DNA from: Elusimicrobiota bacterium
GTDB lineage: Bacteria; Elusimicrobiota; Elusimicrobia; UBA1565; JACRDR01
Length of the DNA: 64,000 nt
NCBI GenBank assembly: GCA_041694815.1
Contig: JBGFSC010000021.1
Location: forward strand, 1-64,000
Direction of reading: 5' to 3'
Made by a program: the position numbers. Positions 9,001-36,000 of the stretch are shown piece by piece. The number at the start of each line of letters is the position of its first letter. The first letter of the stretch is position 1.

Positions 9001-12000
9001 TCCACCGATGGTGTCGGCTTTCGCTGGGCCTCCCCTATTTCCCCTTCGTCTGGCTCTGCCTCTGGATCATCCGCTTGCGCTTGGGGCAGAACCCGGACGC
9101 CTATAGCCCCATCCACCACGCGCATCGCGTGGCCCCACGGCCGCTGCTGTTTATCGCGGGCGCCGAGGACGCCTTGATGCCCTTGGCCGACGTCCGGCGC
9201 GTGTTCGACCGGGCCGGGGAGCCCAAGGAGCTATGGGTCGTCGATCGCGCCGCGCACGGCAAATGCGAGGAGACGGCGAAGGAGAGCTACCATCAGAAGC
9301 TCATGGAATTCTTCGAGGCGCATCTATGAAGGTCTTGCGCGGCGCCGCCGCCATTGCCGCGTTGAGCGCGCGCTGGCGCGCGCGGGGGCAATCTATCGGC
9401 TTCGTCCCCACGATGGGAGCGCTGCACGCGGGCCACCGCTCCCTCATCGAGCGCGCGCGGCGGGAGAACGACCGGGTGATCGTTTCGATCTTCGTCAATC
9501 CGCTTCAATTCGGCCCCGCCGAGGATTTCGCGCGCTATCCCAGGTCCTTTTCAAAAGACCGCCGATTCTGCGCGAAGGCCGGCGTCGACGCGCTCTACCA
9601 TCCCGGCGTCGACGAGATGTATCCTCCGGGCTTCCAGACGCGGGTGGAGCTCCCGGCGCTCTCCGAAAAACTCTGCGGGAAATTCCGGCCCGGGCATTTC
9701 CAGGGCGTGGCGACCGTCGTGCTGAAGCTCTTCGAGCAGGCGCGCCCGGACCGCGCCTATTTCGGGGAGAAGGATTTCCAACAGCTCGTCGTCATCCGCC
9801 GGATGGCGAGGGACCTGGCCCTCGGAGTCCGCATCGTCGGCTGCCCTACCGTGCGCGAAAAGGACGGCTTGGCCTTGTCTAGCCGCAACGCCGGCTTGAC
9901 GCCCCGTCAGCGCTCGGAGGCTCCCGCGCTTTACCGCGCCCTACGCCTCGGGCTTACCGCTATCAAGCAGGGGGCTTCGCTTTCCCAAGCTCGAAGCATG
10001 ATGCGGAGGCGGCTCCAGGAAATCCCCGGCGCTAGGATAGACTACGCGGAGATCGTCGATCCGGATACGCTCGAGGCTCCGCGCCGAACCGATGGCCGGC
10101 TGCGCGCCCTCGCCGCGATACGCCTGGGCAAGACGAGGCTCATTGACAATATCCCGCTCTTGTGCCAGGATGGGGATCGATGAGCGAGCCCAAGCGCAAG
10201 CGGTTTTGGATCGACCAGCCTCTCCAATTGCGAGTCCTGCTTTTCGTCCTCTCGCTCTTGGCCGCGGCGCTCGCGCTCGCCTATCTCAGCATGGACCGCG
10301 GGCTCCTGGAGGCCTCCGAGCGCAGCCGGCGCCTGTTCTTGCCGGTCGACTGGGCGCGCGAATCCCTGCGCCAGCCCTTCCTTTTTACCGGCGCCATCGT
10401 GATGGTCGGCGGGGCCCTCTTGACCCTGCTGTGGTCGCACCGGATCATCGGCCCCCTGCTCGTCCTCATGGCCGGGCTGCGCCGCATCCGCGACGGCAAT
10501 CTCAAGGTGGACATCCGGGTGCGCGACTCCGACGCGCTGCACCGCGCCGTCGAGGATTTCTCGGCCATGCAGGCTTCCTTGCGCAAGAAGATCTCCGAGG
10601 ACCGCGAGCGGGTTGCGGCCGTTGACGAACGCCTGGCCGGGCTGGCCGAGCGGCTCAGGCATGAGCACGGCGCCCGGCGGGAGCTGGAGTCCATCCGCGA
10701 CGAGCTCCGGAAAATCACCGCCTCCTTTCATTTATAATCCTAACCACGCTCGCCTAACACAAGGTAGGCCCTTCGCTCCATACTGCGGGGGTCCAAATGC
10801 CGGACAGGGGCTAGGCCATTGGCCTCAGGCGTGGCTTGCTCGCCGGTGATACAATTCGATCATATTCGGATCGGAGGAATCACATGAAATCACTGCTGTC
10901 CATTATTCTTCTGCTGTGCTCGACGGCCGCGCGCGCGGCCGATCTGACGGCTCAGGTCAAGCTGACCCTTCCAGACGATCGCGTGATCGACGTCCAGGAA
11001 ACGATGCCGGAGCATTACTGGAAAAACGAGGCCCTGCGCCAGGGCGCCGATCGCGCGGCCAGCATCGCCATCAAGCAACTCTCGACGGAAAAGGGATACG
11101 GGATTCTCGCTTCGATCCAAGGCATCGATGTCATCTACGACCTCTCGCTCGAAACGATGACCGACGTATTCAAGGTCCATATCCATTTGAAGGACGGCGT
11201 GACTCGGCGCTACACGGTCGAGGTCAAGCTCATGCCGGCCTCGGCACCCGTTCCCCCCAGGGGAGCCTACGATGCCTTCTCCGGAAATCGCGCCTGCTCG
11301 CTTACCGATGCCAAGCCGATCCGCGCCTGGACCCGCGAGGAAGCGGAAGACGCCGCCCGGCGTTGCGCGGCCGAGCTCGGCCAATACTACGGCGTGAAAA
11401 TCAGCGTCAGCTTCATCAGAGATATCTATTTCTCTATCAGCGCCGGCTCGGCAAACGCCAAACAGGCACAGGCGGATATCTCGTCGGCCTTGGCCAAGCG
11501 CGGCAATCTCTTCTTCGGCTACCCCGCATGGGCCTTTATTAAACCGGATCCTGCACCTGCCCGCCCTTGATGCGCTTAAGCGCCGCCATTCTGGCGGCCG
11601 CCCTCTCTTACCCCCTGCTCGCTGGCGCTGAGGAAAACGTTACGGCGGAGGAGCAGGCCACGACGGCTGGAGAGATGTTCACCGGCCCCGGGACCAAGGA
11701 CGCCGCTGCCGCGGTCCGAACATCGGCCGTGTCCGCTCCCCGCTCGGCGTCATTGGCCGACGGCGCGACGCCCGCTTCCATAAAAAAGGCTGTGCCGCCT
11801 CCGAAGCGAAGCAGCGCGCCGCAAAAAAGCGGCCCCCGAAAAATCGCGGGCGCGATGCTAGCCGCTCTTTTGGCCGTCGGCCTGCTGACCGGCTGCGGGA
11901 GCCTCGCGGCGGCGCCTCCCAAGCTCGACCCGTGCGACGTGAGCATAGCCGCGGTGCACAAGGTCGAATATTCCGTCCATAGCGCTGGCATCGCCGCGCG

Positions 12001-33000: not shown

Positions 33001-36000
33001 GGAGAATCACTGAACCAGCATTATTGGCACACGATCCTGACACAGGCTCCGCCCGACACCGAGCTGACGCTGCACGAATTAACCCCGACGCAGTCAAATT
33101 TGATAAAGCGAGTGGCACCGCCCATATAGAGTATCGATGGACAGGTGCTGCTGGAGTCGTCGCCGACGGCGAATGTCACCACCCTTCCGGAACTGCAGTT
33201 GGCAGTCGCCGTACACGGATGCATGCAGCCGGCTGGGACCACTTCCGGCGTGCGGCTGAGTCCGAGGTATGTTCCCCCGTTCTCGGACACCTGGAATTTG
33301 TTAGACGTTGAATCGAAGTAAATCGCCCCTTGGCCTGCCGAGGAGAGAGGGGGCGCCGAGACGCCGGCGAGTGTCATGGAACTGCGCAGGATCATGCCGC
33401 CGTCGACGTCCAGCTTTCTTGCCGGCGACGTGGTGCCGATGCCGACGCTCCCTACGCTTGTTACGGTCAATGTTGCGGTTCCCACTTGGAATAAGGTTCC
33501 TGCTGCCGGCGCTGACACTCCCAAGGTCAACGTGTCGTAAATACGGACATTCCTGCTACCGACCACGGTTCCGGCTCCTACGACGCTCATGGAGTTTGCA
33601 TCAAAGATTCGGTAATCGATTGATCCGGCGTCGGTGGCGTCTCCCGCATTCTGCTGCATCCGCCACTGCCTGCCTCCCAGGTTCGCCATCGATGTGGAAT
33701 CGCTGCCCGCCGAACCGCTGATGCTCAACGGCGCCTGCGGATTCGTCGTCCCGATCCCTACCCTTCCGGTGCTTGTAATCTGCATGACCCGATCGTTTAT
33801 ATTCGGTCCCGTGCTCACGATTAACGGGATGACGCCGGCGGACCCTTGGATCTCCATTCTCGATATGGGGCTGGTGGTCCCGACTCCGACGGTTCCATCC
33901 GCCCGCACGACGAGCCGATCCTGCCCCCCGCCCGAGGAAGCCTGAAATACGAAAACCGACGCGGAGCCCACCGATGTGGAGACATGCAAGGTCGCGGTCG
34001 GCGCTGTCGTCCCGATGCCCACGTTTCCGCCCTGGTTGATCTGGAAAACCTTCGCGTTTACGGACGAGTCGTAAAAAGCGATGTTGTCCGCAGGAGCCCC
34101 GTAATTCTCGGTCAAAAGCCATTTCTCCGAATCAGAGCGCGAGAAGGTGAGGGTAGGATTGGAGCCTCCGGACTCATTGATCCTTATGGCCGGATTGCTG
34201 CCGGTAATCTTGAAGTTCCGGCTATTGATGAACACCTCGGTAGATATCGTCACTCCGGCCCCGTAGGGATTGCCGACCAGCGTCGTCGCGCTGGAGGCGT
34301 ACATGGCAAAAGGGGTGGCGGTCAGCCGCTCGCGCGGAGATAACGTTGTCGCGGGTGGATCGATGCTGCCGACGACTACCTCGACCCACCATTGCCCGCT
34401 GGTCAGGTCCACGCTGGCGGGCACCGTGAACGTGGAGCGGAAAAGACCGTTCGTGACGCCGACGCCCTGGCTGCCCGTATCGATGCAGCCGCCGCCGCTC
34501 TCGCTGGGGCAGAGATAAATCCTCACGAATCGATTGCCCGTGACGGGTATATTCGACTCCTTCAGTCGTCCCTGATACGTCGCGATGCTGGGCGCCGCCC
34601 CCCATGTTTCGCCAGCCGAAAAGGCCGCCAGGGTGGCCGCCAGGATAATGTTTGTCCTTTTCATATTCGTCTCCTTACCTGCCATGGGTGCCTCCGAAGC
34701 GGAGGGATGCGGAAAAGCGATGGGCGTTGCCGAGCTCCCCGTAAGGCATGATGGCGTAGTCCAGGCTGCCCAATTTCGAATTAAAGCCCGCGCCCATGAA
34801 CATGCCGTAGAACTCCGAAAGGCCCGAGCCCGTGCTGCCTAAGGCCTTGCCCAGCACCGCCCCGCGCTGGACGCTGCTGAAGGTGCGGTACCCCGCGCGG
34901 AGGTTGAACGGCCCGAAGGCCGCGTACTCGAAGCCGAGCCGCAGCACCGGGTCGGAATCCCGCGCGAAATCCATGCCGATGCTCAAGGCGTGCGGGAAGG
35001 ATTTCGAGAGCCCGTAGGTCACGCCGGTGCGCAGGACCAGTGGCAGCGGCGAACTTTCCTCCACGAATTTAAGCCCGGTGCCGATATTGGCGAGCCCGAC
35101 GCCGATGGAGAAGGGACGGGAGAAGCGGTAGAGCGCCCCCAAATCCGCGGCGTAGGCCGTGGCCGAATAGGTTCCGATCGTTTCCCGGATGTACTTTCCC
35201 GTGACCCCCAGTCCCAAGCCGCCGAATTTGCGGCCGTAGCTGAGCCCCAAGCACATGTCGGAAGCGCCGAAGGAGCCGTCCGGAGCGGCCGTCTCGCTGG
35301 TGCGCGCCTCGATATCGCCCAGGGTAAGATAGGTCATGCTGATGCCAAAGGGCCGGCGGGCGAAGGCCATCTGCGTGAGCCGGATGTCCTGGATATGAAA
35401 CGACTGAGACATGAATACCTCGTAAGGGCGATATCCCGGCGAGGAAAATGAGGCGGGATAGGCAAGCCCGGCTGGATTGTAATGGATCCCCGACACATCG
35501 TCAGCCATGGCCACGAAGGATTCCCCCATCCCCAGGGCCCGCGCGCCGAAGCCCAGCTTGAGGAAAGCTGCCGACGAGGTTCCCGGGCCGGCGGCCTGAA
35601 CGCCGAGTGAAAAAAGCATTGGGGCTAAAGCGGAAAAGAATATCGCCAGGGCAAGGCGGCGGTGGACGGCTTGAAGCGGGTGTATTATCGATTTCTCCTG
35701 ATAAATACCGCACTAATATGGAAGGCTCGTTTGACGATTTTGTTACGGCGGTTATACAAAAATGAGTCGTGACAAAAGTCACAAAGAAGCCTGAAGGAGC
35801 CTCCAAAATTGACAAGAATGGACGCCTCTGTTATCCTACCCGCGAAATGGGTCGCTTCTCGATAGGAGCGGCGACGGCCCTTGCCTTCTCGATCCATGCG
35901 ACGCCGCTGGCGGCCGTCGAACCGAGCCGCCCCGCGGCTTCCTCCTCCACCTCGCCCGCGGTCGGCATGCCTTCGACGCTCGGCGAGCTGTTGGCCGAAA

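What a model noticed while it worked through the whole genome (the two positions that open the first line are those of the whole stretch)
10884..35619. Three more FliF-FliG rotor paralogues with spare MotAB stators, set beside CTD cargo, PorV and PorP genes
Besides the conserved operon on C38 the genome has three further membrane-anchored FliF/FliG fusion genes: g00609 (C15:13378-14922; signal/TM, ~130-aa periplasmic domain, TM, FliG_M+FliG_C) followed by MotA, two MotB and a TPR protein, 8 genes from a 3,507-aa CTD protein and its PorV; g01982 (C41:19244-20836; Pfam itself calls YscJ_FliF_C at 59-208, then a TM helix, then FliG_C) next to a 779-aa coiled-coil GHKL-ATPase protein, two histidine kinases and a PorP/type-B-CTD pair; and g00210 (C7:3-818, cut by the contig end) with a like coiled-coil ATPase, MotA and MotB. 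A fourth MotAB pair (C29:14851-16268) has no rotor gene. The family has diversified into several motors tied to surface-protei [...]
Evidence so far: pfam.tsv domains and hydropathy; four flagellar-type MotA and five MotB_plug paralogues cluster as families; CTD list and PorV/PorP adjacency. 3 of the 4 rotor genes lie within 8 genes of a CTD-cargo gene, while 20 cargo genes among 2,649 put about 13% of genes that close. FliG_C next to MotA_ExbB is seen in 37 of 100 genomes of the order but in only 628 of 59,709 genomes that have both families (neighbours.tsv, call 14).
(Added by a program. Inside this text positions count along the whole contig: contig position 1 is position 1 of the stretch shown here. 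"Call 12" and the like, gene names such as g00115 and contig names such as C1 are that model's own, and its searches are not shown. The text may have been shortened before it was handed on; [...] marks where a part breaks off. The agent that wrote the report below was given it as the finding of a first reader that could run no searches.)

Follow-up and report, generated by a model that had tools for sequence, protein, structure and literature searches.

The report
Flagellum-free rotor-stator motor beside adhesin genes
A bacterium with no flagellum keeps the flagellar motor's rotor and stator as a fused, stand-alone module that sits, in genome after genome, beside genes for an outer-membrane pore and a giant surface protein, which points to an undescribed envelope motor.

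Summary
Window 13378-17890 (+) encodes a 514-aa fusion of a FliF RBM3-like periplasmic domain, one TM helix and FliG middle and C domains. It is followed by a flagellar-type MotA, two MotB and a secreted TPR protein. Three further FliF/FliG fusions (C38, C41, C7) and an orphan MotAB (C29) are real. No FlhA, FliF N-part, flagellin or FliM/N was found in the 97.8%-complete genome.

New here: the five-gene operon is complete in 22 of 24 related Elusimicrobiota loci. In 18 of 24 it lies beside a single-copy, MtrB-like 26-strand outer-membrane barrel (no Pfam family). A FecR-like protein, a CARDB protein, giant proteins sharing the T9SS type-A C-terminal region and often PorV usually accompany it, in shuffled order. 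The C41/C7-type rotor likewise travels with a PorP-TPR barrel and a type-B CTD protein.

Best reading: a non-flagellar, ion-driven rotor-stator module coupled to an outer-membrane and surface-adhesin module. The function is inferred, not shown. It is not the general type IX motor, because the SprA-like translocon occurs in lineages without these rotors.

This scan noted the same kind of operon before in at least eight other Elusimicrobia genomes. My five literature searches found no paper describing it.

The parts
13378..14922 (+). FliF(RBM3-like)-TM-FliG(M+C) fusion, the proposed rotor subunit (514 aa, P0001). Layout: signal/TM 1-19, periplasmic domain about 22-158 with the invariant LPGVP loop (75-79), TM helix about 161-185, Pro/Ala-rich linker, FliG_M 248-314, FliG_C 342-447, disordered tail.
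   Evidence: Pfam. NCBIfam fliG E 8e-17 and fliF E 4.5e-4, both below their cut-offs. Profile against PDB: FliG_MC E 5.6e-35, FliF E 1e-4 and 8e-4. AF2 model pLDDT 73.9. Foldseek: FliG ranks 1-13, FliF RBM3 ranks 14-31.
14928..15713 (+). Flagellar-type MotA/PomA stator A subunit (261 aa).
   Evidence: Full-length match to solved flagellar MotA 9lu9_A (E 3e-49) and PomA 8bri_A (E 1e-38). NCBIfam MotA E 2e-54, 184 bits, below the equivalog cut-off of 340. The E. coli R90 equivalent is basic in 22 of 24 orthologues.
15719..16369 (+). MotB1, a stator B subunit: TM helix with the conserved Asp, plug, and OmpA-like peptidoglycan-binding domain.
   Evidence: Pfam MotB_plug and OmpA. The E. coli MotB D32 equivalent is Asp in 23 of 23.
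16362..17009 (+). MotB2, a second, distinct B subunit about 41% identical to MotB1. It is conserved as a separate orthologue group.
   Evidence: Pfam. Both B genes are present in every complete locus. The D32 equivalent is Asp in 23 of 24.
17006..17890 (+). Secreted periplasmic TPR protein (294 aa). Its start overlaps the MotB2 stop codon.
   Evidence: Pfam TPR. A signal peptide is present here and in the orthologues. It is homologous to the TPR parts of the C38 PorV-TPR protein (30% id, E 6.5e-14) and the C41 PorP-TPR protein (26%, E 1.3e-7).
17847..19778 (-). u643: outer-membrane protein with an N-terminal Ig-like sandwich and a 26-strand beta-barrel of MtrB type. It is single-copy, matches no Pfam or NCBIfam family, and converges on the motor operon.
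   Evidence: No family match. AF2 pLDDT 86.8. VIA: MtrB 6r2q_B Z 22.4, rmsd 4.8 over 453 residues; next best Z 16.6. Foldseek matches ushers, MtrB and LptD. Single copy in the genome. Present beside the operon in 18 of 24 loci. Family size: 81 representatives at E <= 1e-30 among 1.84 billion.
19894..20628 (-). Secreted FecR-domain protein (244 aa).
   Evidence: Pfam FecR E 2e-9. Signal peptide. Conserved beside u643 in 16 of 24 loci.
20600..22387 (-). Secreted CARDB-domain protein (595 aa), single-copy.
   Evidence: Pfam CARDB 23.1 bits, cut-off 22.7. Single copy. Conserved in 16 of 24 loci.
22419..32987 (-). Giant surface protein (3522-aa ORF) with beta-helix, Kelch and about 11 fn3 domains. 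Its conserved C-terminal 450 aa end in a T9SS type-A sorting domain.
   Evidence: Pfam. TIGR04183 24.8 bits, cut-off 23, on the last 493 aa. C-terminal 450-aa homologues (33-53% id) lie in the cluster in 6 of 8 long-contig genomes.
33021..34685 (-). u554: secreted fibre-like repeat protein with a Cys-rich C-terminus.
   Evidence: No Pfam match. Weak match to the Bdellovibrio mosaic adhesive trimer domain, E 0.007. A homologue lies next to PorV in 3 of 8 genomes.
34675..35619 (-). PorV/PorQ-family outer-membrane barrel.
   Evidence: NF033709 144.8 bits, cut-off 90. In the cluster in 4 of 8 long-contig genomes and directly upstream of the rotor gene in L009. The family is multi-copy in this genome.

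Best explanation
The locus encodes a stand-alone, non-flagellar rotor-stator module.

The rotor. The 514-aa protein joins the ring-building RBM3 domain of FliF, one membrane helix, and the middle and C-terminal (torque-receiving) domains of FliG. FliG_N is absent and would be redundant in a fusion. By analogy with the 33-34-mer MS ring and with engineered FliF-FliG fusions, the protein is inferred to form a membrane ring with a FliG ring on its cytoplasmic face.

The stator. A flagellar-type MotA with two different MotB subunits is anchored to peptidoglycan through OmpA-like domains. Both MotB keep the proton-carrying Asp. The stator is inferred to turn or push this ring using the ion gradient. 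The retained contact would be the basic MotA R90-equivalent against the invariant acidic FliG D289-equivalent.

The output. It is not a flagellum. The module is inferred to be coupled through the periplasm to an outer-membrane and surface module that travels with it in evolution. That module comprises a MtrB-like 26-strand barrel (u643), FecR-like and CARDB proteins, PorV, and a giant adhesin-like protein with a type-A CTD. A likely coupling route is the co-translated TPR protein binding the invariant LPGVP loop of the rotor. The motor would then power the export, surface anchoring or surface movement of that giant protein.

The C38 and C41/C7 paralogues look like parallel cassettes built on the same plan: PorV-TPR or PorP-TPR barrels with their own CTD proteins.

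Shown: domain homology, topology, absence of flagellar genes, and conserved synteny. Inferred: ring formation, rotation, the coupling route and the cargo.
For: Homology of the rotor protein:
- FliG_M and FliG_C pass the Pfam cut-offs.
- The family profile hits T. maritima FliG_MC at E 5.6e-35.
- The N-terminal-only profile hits Salmonella FliF at positions 241-279 and 404-498, which cover RBM3 and TM2 (E 8e-4), and SpoIIIAG at E 0.047.
- 11 of 15 members match YscJ_FliF_C.
- The AF2 model has the RBM alpha-beta-beta-alpha-beta fold followed by a TM helix and FliG_MC.
- Foldseek ranks FliG at 1-13 and FliF S-ring/RBM3 at 14-31.

The stator:
- MotA aligns full-length with solved flagellar MotA and PomA.
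- Both MotB groups keep the D32 equivalent: 23 of 23 and 23 of 24.

The rotor-stator interface:
- In 20 rotor orthologues, D289 is Glu in 20 of 20, while R281 is Gly in 20 of 20.
- In 24 operon MotA proteins, the R90 position is basic in 22 of 24, while the E98 position is acidic in only 2 of 24.
- So one charge pair is kept on both partners and the other is lost on both. The pairing R90/D288-D289 and E98/R281 is quoted from PMC12505986 (passages).

No flagellum: FHIPEP, YscJ_FliF, Flagellin_N and FliMN_C give 0 matches in the 97.8%-complete genome. Each control search rang in 4-5 of 14 control genomes.

Operon structure: gaps of 5 bases or overlaps of 4-8 bases between the five genes.

Synteny:
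- All five genes are present in 14 of 16 genome-contig loci; the other two are cut by contig ends.
- All five are present in 8 of 8 long-contig genomes.
- u643 lies beside the operon in 11 of 16 and 7 of 8 of these; FecR-like and CARDB in 10 of 16 and 6 of 8.
- Giant proteins with the conserved C-terminal 450 aa occur in 6 of 8, and PorV in 4 of 8, with different gene orders.
- u643 and CARDB595 are single-copy, so this is not a chance effect of gene number.
- No conserved gene lies upstream of the rotor gene.

The same plan in the paralogues:
- C38 has PorV-TPR directly upstream of FliG-TPR.
- The C41 type has CHU_C, PorP-TPR, a histidine kinase, the rotor, a GHKL ATPase, a histidine kinase and MotBA in other genomes.
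- The free TPR protein is homologous to the barrel-fused TPR domains.

Breadth: the profile is found in 107 of 301 genomes and 67 of 98 genera of the phylum.

Precedent: engineered FliF-FliG fusions form rings (abstracts of PMC6079021, PMC10941966 and PMC11481574, seen in the listing).
Against: - There is no experiment and no expression data. Ring formation, rotation and periplasmic coupling are untested.
- The FliF evidence is marginal in E-value (8e-4, 1e-4; Foldseek 1e-4). It covers only RBM3; RBM1 and RBM2 are absent.
- The AF2 model has pTM 0.36, and the conserved LPGVP loop is disordered in it.
- The R281/E98 charge pair and the FliM-binding EHPQ motif are missing. The interface therefore differs from that of the flagellar motor.
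- Synteny is not universal. G228 has the operon with no cluster gene within 34 kb. L013, L014 and L023 show no u643 in the 3-5 kb available beyond the TPR gene.
- PorV-family genes are numerous (18 in this genome), so PorV adjacency alone is weak.
- The SprA-like translocon occurs in lineages almost devoid of these rotors: family f4 has SprA-like in 86 of 88 genomes but the rotor in 1 of 88. The motor is therefore not needed for the general pathway.
- The C7 copy has no PorP or CTD neighbour.
- A short RBM3 ring cannot by itself span the periplasm.
Confidence: 0.55

Rival explanations
1. General type IX motor. The FliF/FliG-MotAB modules replace GldLM/PorLM as the energy source of a T9SS-like pathway (SprA-like translocon, PorV, CTD cargo) in Elusimicrobiota.
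For: - The genome has a SprA-like 1829-aa protein (TIGR04189 E 9e-42, below its cut-off).
- It has 18 PorV-family matches and both type-A and type-B CTDs.
- No GldL, GldM, GldN or PorU catalytic part was found.
- Rotors lie beside PorV, PorP and CTD genes.
Against: - SprA-like proteins occur in 258 of 301 genomes of the phylum. That includes family f4 (86 of 88) and f14 (50 of 89), where the rotor profile is found in only 1 of 88 and 1 of 89.
- PorV-family genes also occur there: f4 19 of 19, f14 18 of 19.
- Each rotor type is tied to its own cassette, not to the SprA gene on C19, which sits among LptF/G and sugar dehydrogenase genes.
- The GldL, GldM and GldN searches had no positive control, so their absence is not shown.
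Confidence: 0.1
2. Non-rotary force transducer. The fusion protein does not form a ring. It acts like TonB, TolA or GldM: a single-pass partner that the MotAB unit tugs on. This would transmit force or a signal to the outer-membrane barrel, either to gate it or to sense the envelope. The histidine kinases and GHKL ATPases of the C41/C7 cassettes would read out the result.
For: - Other 5:2 motors work through single-pass partners (PMC12204202 and PMC9389320; passages and listing).
- The C41/C7 cassettes carry two histidine kinases and a coiled-coil HATPase_c protein.
- A histidine kinase lies at window 36473-37825.
- The orphan MotAB pair lies beside response regulators.
- AF2 gives no information on oligomers.
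Against: - The periplasmic domain is specifically the ring-building RBM3 of FliF. Its known relatives (FliF, SpoIIIAG, PrgK) all form large rings.
- FliG_C contacts MotA on its cytoplasmic face, unlike TonB and TolA, which bind in the membrane.
- The histidine kinase at 36473-37825 is not conserved in the other clusters.
Confidence: 0.15
3. Co-location without joint function. The motor operon and the barrel/adhesin cluster are separate systems that share a genomic island or a regulator. The motor's real output lies elsewhere, for example in type IV pili or cell-envelope maintenance.
For: - G228 carries the operon alone.
- The two gene sets are convergent, so they are not co-transcribed.
- A PilB-like ATPase with a receiver domain lies near the C7 copy.
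- PorV and CTD genes are abundant.
Against: - The single-copy u643, FecR-like and CARDB genes stay next to the operon in 18 of 24 loci, across families that share only 30-40% rotor identity. Gene order changes but the neighbourhood is kept.
- Three paralogous rotor types each pair with a PorV- or PorP-type barrel and a TPR module.
Confidence: 0.12
4. Decaying remnant of a lost flagellum with no present function.
For: All other flagellar genes searched are missing. FliG_N, RBM1/2, the EHPQ motif and R281 are lost.
Against: - Intact frames with conserved motifs occur in 20 or more orthologues.
- The genome has four paralogues, each with its own conserved partners.
- The rotor profile is present in 67 of 98 genera.
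- The proton-carrying Asp and the R90-D289 pair are kept.
- The five genes are tightly, translationally coupled.
Confidence: 0.03

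Closest known systems
Core of the bacterial flagellar motor: FliF MS-ring, FliG ring and MotA5B2/PomA5B2 stator units
   Same: - Homologous RBM3 ring-building domain, TM helix, and FliG middle and C domains with a torque helix.
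- Flagellar-type MotA over its full length.
- MotB with plug, conserved Asp and OmpA-like domain.
- The R90-D289 type charge pair is kept.
   Different: - One polypeptide instead of FliF plus FliG.
- No RBM1/2, FliG_N or EHPQ (FliM-binding) motif, and no R281/E98 pair.
- No FliM/N, export gate, rod, hook or filament genes in the genome.
- Two different MotB per MotA, and a secreted TPR protein in the operon.
- Neighbours are an outer-membrane barrel and a giant CTD protein rather than flagellar genes.
Engineered FliF-FliG fusion proteins of Salmonella and Vibrio
   Same: A covalent FliF-FliG fusion that assembles MS-ring-like rings (abstracts of PMC6079021, PMC10941966 and PMC11481574, seen in the listing). 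This shows that a 1:1 fused rotor subunit is structurally viable.
   Different: Those are laboratory constructs of full-length FliF and FliG inside a flagellar system. Here the fusion is natural, trimmed to RBM3 plus FliG_MC, and occurs without a flagellum.
GldLM/PorLM motor of type IX secretion and gliding (Bacteroidota)
   Same: An ion-driven inner-membrane motor serving outer-membrane barrels (PorV, PorP/SprF) and giant CTD adhesins. PMC8986121 was seen by title and abstract only. The genomic partners here are PorV-family and PorP-like barrels and type-A and type-B CTD proteins.
   Different: - No GldL, GldM or GldN match was found, though these searches had no positive control.
- The motor parts are MotAB and FliG, and torque is taken up in the cytoplasm by FliG_C, not by a periplasmic GldM arm.
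- The SprA-like translocon exists in lineages without these rotors.
MtrB of the MtrCAB complex (26-strand sheath barrel)
   Same: The u643 barrel (model residues 147-639) superposes best on MtrB: Z 22.4, rmsd 4.8 over 453 residues, against Z 16.6 for the next chain. That MtrB sheathes MtrA and links it to surface MtrC is recalled from memory, not taken from a call.
   Different: About 10% sequence identity and no sequence-level PDB match. u643 has an extra N-terminal Ig-like domain. No cytochrome partners were looked for. A shared fold does not show a shared function.

Membership tests
FliG (flagellar motor switch protein, TIGR00207 / Pfam FliG_N, FliG_M, FliG_C) | FliG middle and C-terminal domains | tested here: met
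   PF14841 39 bits (cut-off 25) and PF01706 41.1 bits (cut-off 23.3). Profile against 3ajc_A E 5.6e-35.
FliG (flagellar motor switch protein, TIGR00207 / Pfam FliG_N, FliG_M, FliG_C) | FliG_N domain that binds the FliF C-terminus, and the whole-protein equivalog score | tested here: not met
   FliG_N scores 22.4 bits (cut-off 25), and that match lies over the FliG_M region 255-340. TIGR00207 scores 61.5 bits against a cut-off of 226.7.
FliG (flagellar motor switch protein, TIGR00207 / Pfam FliG_N, FliG_M, FliG_C) | Torque-helix charges R281, D288, D289 and the EHPQ motif (E. coli numbering) | tested here: not met
   In 20 orthologues: R281 is Gly in 20 of 20; D288 is Gln in 18 and Glu in 2; D289 is Glu in 20 of 20. 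EHPQ reads ESAE. Only one of the three charges is kept.
FliG (flagellar motor switch protein, TIGR00207 / Pfam FliG_N, FliG_M, FliG_C) | Works with FliM/FliN and a flagellar export apparatus | tested here: not met
   FliMN_C, FHIPEP and Flagellin_N give 0 matches in the 97.8%-complete genome. The controls rang in 4-5 of 14 genomes.
FliF (MS-ring protein, TIGR00206 / Pfam YscJ_FliF, YscJ_FliF_C) | RBM3 ring-building domain followed by TM2 | tested here: met
   N-terminal profile against 6scn_A: E 8e-4, matching FliF 241-279 and 404-498. YscJ_FliF_C matches in 11 of 15 members, best E 1.5e-5. Foldseek finds FliF S-ring chains at E 1e-4, TMt 0.59. The E-values are marginal.
FliF (MS-ring protein, TIGR00206 / Pfam YscJ_FliF, YscJ_FliF_C) | RBM1 and RBM2 (PF01514), and the whole-protein equivalog score | tested here: not met
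   PF01514 gives 0 matches in the genome. TIGR00206 scores 19.3 bits against a cut-off of 129.75.
FliF (MS-ring protein, TIGR00206 / Pfam YscJ_FliF, YscJ_FliF_C) | Assembly into a ring of about 33-34 subunits | not testable with these tools
   The only job that could bear on contacts (complex prediction) was never accepted because its queue was full (and later).
Flagellar MotA/PomA stator A subunit | Four-TM MotA with a flagellar-type cytoplasmic domain, aligned over its full length | tested here: met
   9lu9_A E 3e-49, residues 1-246 against 1-246. Below the NCBIfam equivalog cut-off, 184 against 340 bits.
Flagellar MotA/PomA stator A subunit | Charged residues R90 and E98 (E. coli numbering) | tested here: inconclusive
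   The R90 position is basic in 22 of 24 and the E98 position acidic in 2 of 24. An acidic residue stands at position 95 in 20 of 24.
MotB stator B subunit | TM helix with the conserved Asp, plug, and OmpA-like peptidoglycan-binding domain | tested here: met
   MotB_plug and OmpA in both proteins. D32 equivalent: 23 of 23 and 23 of 24.
Type IX secretion system (Bacteroidota type) | PorV-family barrel and cargo with a type-A CTD | tested here: met
   NF033709 144.8 bits, cut-off 90. TIGR04183 24.8 bits, cut-off 23.
Type IX secretion system (Bacteroidota type) | Sov/SprA translocon | tested here: inconclusive
   The 1829-aa protein on C19 matches TIGR04189 in three stretches: E 9e-42, 142.5 bits against a cut-off of 200.
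Type IX secretion system (Bacteroidota type) | GldL/PorL, GldM/PorM, GldN/PorN and the PorU sortase | tested here: inconclusive
   No match to TIGR03513, TIGR03517, PF12081 or TIGR03523. NF033707 matches only through its own CTD, positions 955-1094. None of the GldL, GldM or GldN searches rang in a control genome, so absence is not shown.

The most novel reading that the evidence does not exclude
Elusimicrobiota carry several self-contained, flagellum-independent rotary machines. In each, a ring of FliF-RBM3/FliG fusion subunits is turned by flagellar-type MotAB units. Its motion passes through a periplasmic TPR module to an outer-membrane barrel: the MtrB-like u643, PorV-TPR or PorP-TPR. That barrel holds or moves a giant CTD adhesin. 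This would be a new class of secretion, gliding or adhesin-handling motor. It would also be the first natural case of the flagellar torque-generating core working without a type III export apparatus, and so a living model (or descendant) of a pre-flagellar rotor-stator.
Probability: 0.3. Interest if true: 0.95.

Novelty: new variant of a known kind. Interest (0 to 1): 0.8.

Why it matters
FliG-MotAB torque generation is known only from flagella. A conserved, multi-copy FliF/FliG-MotAB module in a phylum that lacks the rest of the flagellum would show that this core can serve another envelope machine.

It would give a minimal natural rotor to study: one fused subunit, with no switch complex and no export gate. 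It also bears directly on how the flagellar motor originated, by exaptation of a simpler rotor-stator or by reduction from a flagellum.

The link to PorV/PorP barrels, a new MtrB-like barrel family and giant CTD adhesins offers a concrete, testable candidate for how surface adhesins are energised outside Bacteroidota.

Tried and rejected
- Complex prediction (secreted TPR protein, A5 residues 20-294, against the rotor's periplasmic domain, A2 residues 22-158). No result exists, and the TPR-LPGVP coupling idea is untested.\n- Sequencing runs: none was listed for window 13300-19800, so there are no expression data.\n- Rfam on the window: only four tRNAs, and no riboswitch at this locus.\n- Promoter and terminator scan of 12900-20000: not above shuffled sequence.\n- Upstream genes 10836-13179 are not conserved: no tblastn hit in 16 loci, and the best upstream cluster is shared by 4 of 15 loci. 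They are therefore not part of the system.\n- The TPR protein at 35769-36476 and the histidine kinase at 36473-37825 have no homologue in the 8 long-contig clusters, and only one kinase hit among the 16 loci. They are not part of the conserved core.\n- u643 profile against PDB sequences: nothing below E 1. Pfam and NCBIfam: nothing.\n- GldL, GldM, GldN and PorU searches found nothing usable and had no positive control.\n- search of earlier findings by place in this genome: nothing.\n- Papers. Five searches used the terms FliG, MotA, non-flagellar, type IX secretion, Elusimicrobia, FliG-like, FliG homolog/paralog and FliF-FliG fusion. They found no description of a natural non-flagellar FliF-FliG/MotAB system. 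PMC12505986, PMC12204202 and PMC7031533 were read as passages only, and supplements were not opened.\n- A tree of the paralogues against flagellar FliG was considered and dropped. Only three flagellar FliG sequences were at hand, too few to root it.

Full report
**What is in the window**

Between 13378 and 17890 on the + strand lie five tightly packed genes, with gaps of 5 bases or overlaps of 4-8 bases.

- The first gene encodes a 514-aa protein (P0001). It has FliG_M (248-314) and FliG_C (342-447) over the Pfam cut-offs, an N-terminal signal/TM segment and one strong TM helix near 161-185.
- The next three genes encode a MotA_ExbB protein and two MotB_plug+OmpA proteins.
- The fifth encodes a TPR protein. 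Its real start is the ATG at 17006, which overlaps the MotB2 stop, and a signal peptide follows it.

Converging on this operon is a run of minus-strand genes:

- u643 (17847-19778);
- a FecR-domain protein;
- a CARDB protein;
- a 3522-aa ORF with beta-helix, Kelch and fn3 domains;
- a fibre-like 554-aa protein;
- a PorV-family barrel.

The last 493 aa of the giant protein pass the T9SS type-A sorting-domain model: TIGR04183, 24.8 bits against a cut-off of 23.

**The other copies**

The genome (2.77 Mb, 54 contigs, 97.8% complete) has four FliG_C places.

- C38 encodes a 650-aa FliG_M/FliG_C protein with a TPR tail. Upstream lie a PorV-family+TPR protein and a 2057-aa protein. Downstream lie an unknown protein, MotA and MotB.
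- C41 encodes a 530-aa protein in which Pfam itself calls YscJ_FliF_C (59-208) before FliG_M and FliG_C. It sits among a coiled-coil HATPase_c protein, histidine kinases, a PorP/PorV-like+TPR protein and a type-B CTD protein.
- C7 starts inside such a gene, followed by an HATPase_c protein, MotA and MotB.
- C29 has a MotAB pair next to two response regulators, with no FliG gene.

**No flagellum**

FHIPEP (FlhA), YscJ_FliF (FliF RBM1/2), Flagellin_N and FliMN_C each gave no match in the genome. The same searches rang in 4-5 of the 14 control genomes.

**What the 514-aa protein is**

Fifteen close relatives (36-43% identity) were aligned as A1. All those that carry a source name come from Elusimicrobia MAGs.

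- The profile hits T. maritima FliG_MC at E 5.6e-35 and Salmonella FliF at E 1e-4.
- 11 of the 15 members match YscJ_FliF_C at E <= 1, best 1.5e-5.
- A profile of the N-terminal 205 residues alone (A2, 20 orthologues) still finds Salmonella FliF at E 8e-4. It matches in two pieces, FliF 241-279 and 404-498. These are the two halves of RBM3 plus TM2, so most of the beta-collar insert is missing. The same profile finds SpoIIIAG at E 0.047.
- The AF2 model (pLDDT 73.9, pTM 0.36) shows helix-strand-[disordered 66-94]-strand-helix-strand, a long TM helix, a disordered linker and the FliG_MC helices.
- Foldseek ranks FliG structures 1-13 (best E 9.6e-10) and FliF S-ring/RBM3 chains 14-31 (best E 9.9e-5, TMt 0.59). 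PrgK follows.
- The disordered insert holds the only invariant stretch of the periplasmic domain, LPGVP at 75-79.

The protein is therefore a natural fusion of FliF-RBM3, a TM helix and FliG_MC. It lacks RBM1/2 and FliG_N.

The three full-length paralogues share this plan with inserts of different size. They are only 23-24% identical to one another, about as far as from two flagellar FliG sequences (21-25%).

**The stator and the interface**

MotA aligns end to end with solved flagellar MotA (9lu9_A, E 3e-49) and PomA. It is a flagellar-type A subunit, not an ExbB/TolQ type, although it scores below the NCBIfam equivalog cut-offs.

MotB1 and MotB2 form two separate orthologue groups in all complete loci. 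Both keep the E. coli D32 equivalent: 23 of 23 and 23 of 24.

I mapped E. coli numbering with fliG and motA fetched from K-12.

- In 20 rotor orthologues, R281 is Gly in 20 of 20, D288 is Gln in 18 and Glu in 2, and D289 is Glu in 20 of 20.
- The FliM-binding EHPQ motif reads ESAE.
- In 24 operon MotA proteins the R90 position is basic in 22. The E98 position is acidic in only 2, while position 95 is acidic in 20.

The known pairs are R90 with D288/D289 and E98 with R281 (PMC12505986, passage). One pair is thus retained on both partners and the other is lost on both. This is what a co-evolving rotor-stator contact would look like, but it is an inference from alignments.

**Conserved neighbourhood**

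A scan of species-representative genomes gave 16 loci. Fifteen are labelled Elusimicrobia, Elusimicrobiota or 'bacterium', and one is labelled Nitrospirota. I also fetched up to 34 kb around the gene in 8 further genomes of the same order or class. The contigs of the two sets differ in length, so I count 24 separate loci.

| Feature | 16 genome-contig loci | 8 long-contig genomes |
|---|---|---|
| All five operon genes | 14 (the other 2 cut by contig ends) | 8 |
| u643 | 11 | 7 |
| FecR-like protein | 10 | 6 |
| CARDB protein | 10 | 6 |
| Giant protein sharing the C-terminal ~450 aa (33-53% id) | not counted | 6 (two such proteins in four genomes) |
| PorV | 1 (directly upstream of the rotor gene, L009) | 4 |
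| u554 | not counted | 3 |

- Gene order differs between lineages. Here it runs PorV-u554-giant-CARDB-FecR-u643. In G254, G212 and G054 it runs giant-CARDB-FecR-PorV-u554 ... giant-u643.
- u643 and CARDB595 are single-copy in this genome.
- Nothing upstream of the rotor gene is conserved.
- Misses: G228 shows none of the cluster genes in 34 kb. L013, L014 and L023 show no u643 in the 3-5 kb available.

For the C41/C7 type I looked at four other genomes of the order. All four have rotor, GHKL ATPase and histidine kinase. Three have PorP-TPR and a type-B CTD protein on one side, and three have MotB-MotA on the other.

The free TPR protein of this locus is homologous to the TPR parts of the C38 PorV-TPR protein (30%, E 6.5e-14) and the C41 PorP-TPR protein (26%, E 1.3e-7). 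So three rotor types each come with a PorV- or PorP-type barrel, a TPR module of one family and a large CTD protein.

**u643**

It has no Pfam, NCBIfam or PDB-sequence match. The AF2 model (pLDDT 86.8) has an Ig-like sandwich (27-136) and 26 strands (149-638), and the protein ends in ...SYSF.

Foldseek finds large barrels in general: PapC, MtrB, FimD, LptD and SprA. The Foldseek-independent search puts MtrB clearly first, at Z 22.4 and rmsd 4.8 over 453 residues, with the next chain at Z 16.6.

The family is small: 81 representatives at E <= 1e-30 and 204 at E <= 1e-10 among 1.84 billion. A barrel of this size could enclose a protein segment, as MtrB does. This is an analogy, and MtrB's role is recalled rather than taken from a call.

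**Relation to type IX secretion**

- The genome has a SprA-like 1829-aa protein, below the family cut-off.
- It has 18 PorV-family matches.
- It has both type-A and type-B CTDs.
- I found no GldL, GldM, GldN or PorU catalytic part. Those searches had no positive control.
- The SprA-like protein occurs in 258 of 301 genomes of the phylum. That includes family f4 (86 of 88) and f14 (50 of 89), where the rotor profile is found in only 1 of 88 and 1 of 89. PorV is present there too.

The rotors are therefore not the general motor of that pathway. They belong to particular cassettes, and they occur mainly in the lineages with larger genomes and many PorV genes.

**Distribution and prior knowledge**

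- The rotor profile is found in 107 of 301 genomes and 67 of 98 genera of the phylum.
- The N-terminal profile finds 79 protein clusters. Every row with a source name says Elusimicrobia, Elusimicrobiota or Elusimicrobiales, and the annotation is 'hypothetical' or 'FliG C-terminal domain-containing'.
- The protein atlas lists look-alike long FliG_C proteins in Bdellovibrionota, Cloacimonadota, Bacteroidota and Thermodesulfobacteriota. These are leads only.
- Five literature searches found only engineered FliF-FliG fusions and no natural non-flagellar system.
- This scan has noted the same kind of operon in at least eight other Elusimicrobia genomes, with the same reading.
- One lead from those notes, c-di-GMP control, holds for this genome's C38 operon. 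A c-di-GMP-I riboswitch (60.7 bits, cut-off 59) lies just upstream of its PorV-TPR gene. It does not hold for the window's locus.

**Verdict**

The most likely reading (0.55) is a stand-alone FliF/FliG ring driven by MotA-MotB1/MotB2. This ring would be coupled through the periplasm to a barrel-and-adhesin module.

Ring formation, rotation, the coupling route (my guess is the TPR protein on the LPGVP loop) and the cargo are all inferred. The one job that could have tested a contact was never accepted.

The rivals are a non-rotary force or signal transducer, mere co-location, a general T9SS motor, and a relic. They are less likely, for the reasons given under each.

Noticed in passing
G000:C34:38996-39709 (L048:10997-11710), contig end: An ORF that runs off the end of contig C34 matches YscJ_FliF_C (27.7 bits, cut-off 23.8). 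It is 35% identical to residues 31-230 of the C41 rotor protein. It is very probably the missing 5' half of the C7:3-818 gene, so C34 and C7 adjoin. The genes upstream are housekeeping (diphthamide-synthase-like, UPRTase, nucleoside phosphorylases), not PorP or CTD genes.
   Followed up: partly
L005:6455-6531 (+) = G000:C38, just upstream of the PorV-TPR gene: A c-di-GMP-I-GGC riboswitch (RF03167, 60.7 bits, gathering score 59) heads the C38 rotor-stator operon. No riboswitch was found at the window's own locus.
   Followed up: partly
window 35769-36476 (+) and 36473-37825 (+): A TPR protein lies divergent from PorV. It is 37% identical to the TPR part of the C41 PorP-TPR protein. A HAMP-HisKA-HATPase_c histidine kinase follows it. 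The minus-strand ORF 35685-36488 that overlaps them is probably not a gene. Neither gene is conserved in the related clusters.
   Followed up: yes
window 11567-12364 and 12361-13179 (+): Two paralogous secreted or lipoprotein-like proteins lie upstream of the rotor gene. Each has an internal 'LLTGCG' lipobox-like segment, and their C-terminal helices are similar. They match no family and are not conserved in the related loci.
   Followed up: partly
G000:C50:7756-12656 and G000:C2:486-3136: Further PorP-TPR plus type-B-CTD-like gene pairs. The C50 pair is 46% and 37% identical to the C41 pair. No FliG gene lies on those stretches.
   Followed up: no
G000, whole genome; phylum sample: PorV/PorQ-family genes are greatly expanded: 18 matches here and 10-29 or more in the other large-genome lineages. 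The two rotor-poor families have mostly 1-4 (f4) and 1-10 (f14).
   Followed up: partly
L023 (CAYYSS010000025.1): One locus with rotor, MotA, two MotB and TPR (35-51% identity) is labelled as a Nitrospirota MAG. It is either a member outside the phylum or a binning error.
   Followed up: no
G000:C19:8829-14318 (L042): A SprA/Sov-like 1829-aa protein (three stretches, E 9e-42, below cut-off) sits next to LptF/LptG and far from any rotor gene. Proteins of this kind, about 1800 aa long, are present in 258 of 301 genomes of the phylum.
   Followed up: partly
window 1432-1725 (+) and 2844-2913 (-): Four tRNA genes, the only Rfam matches in the window.
   Followed up: no
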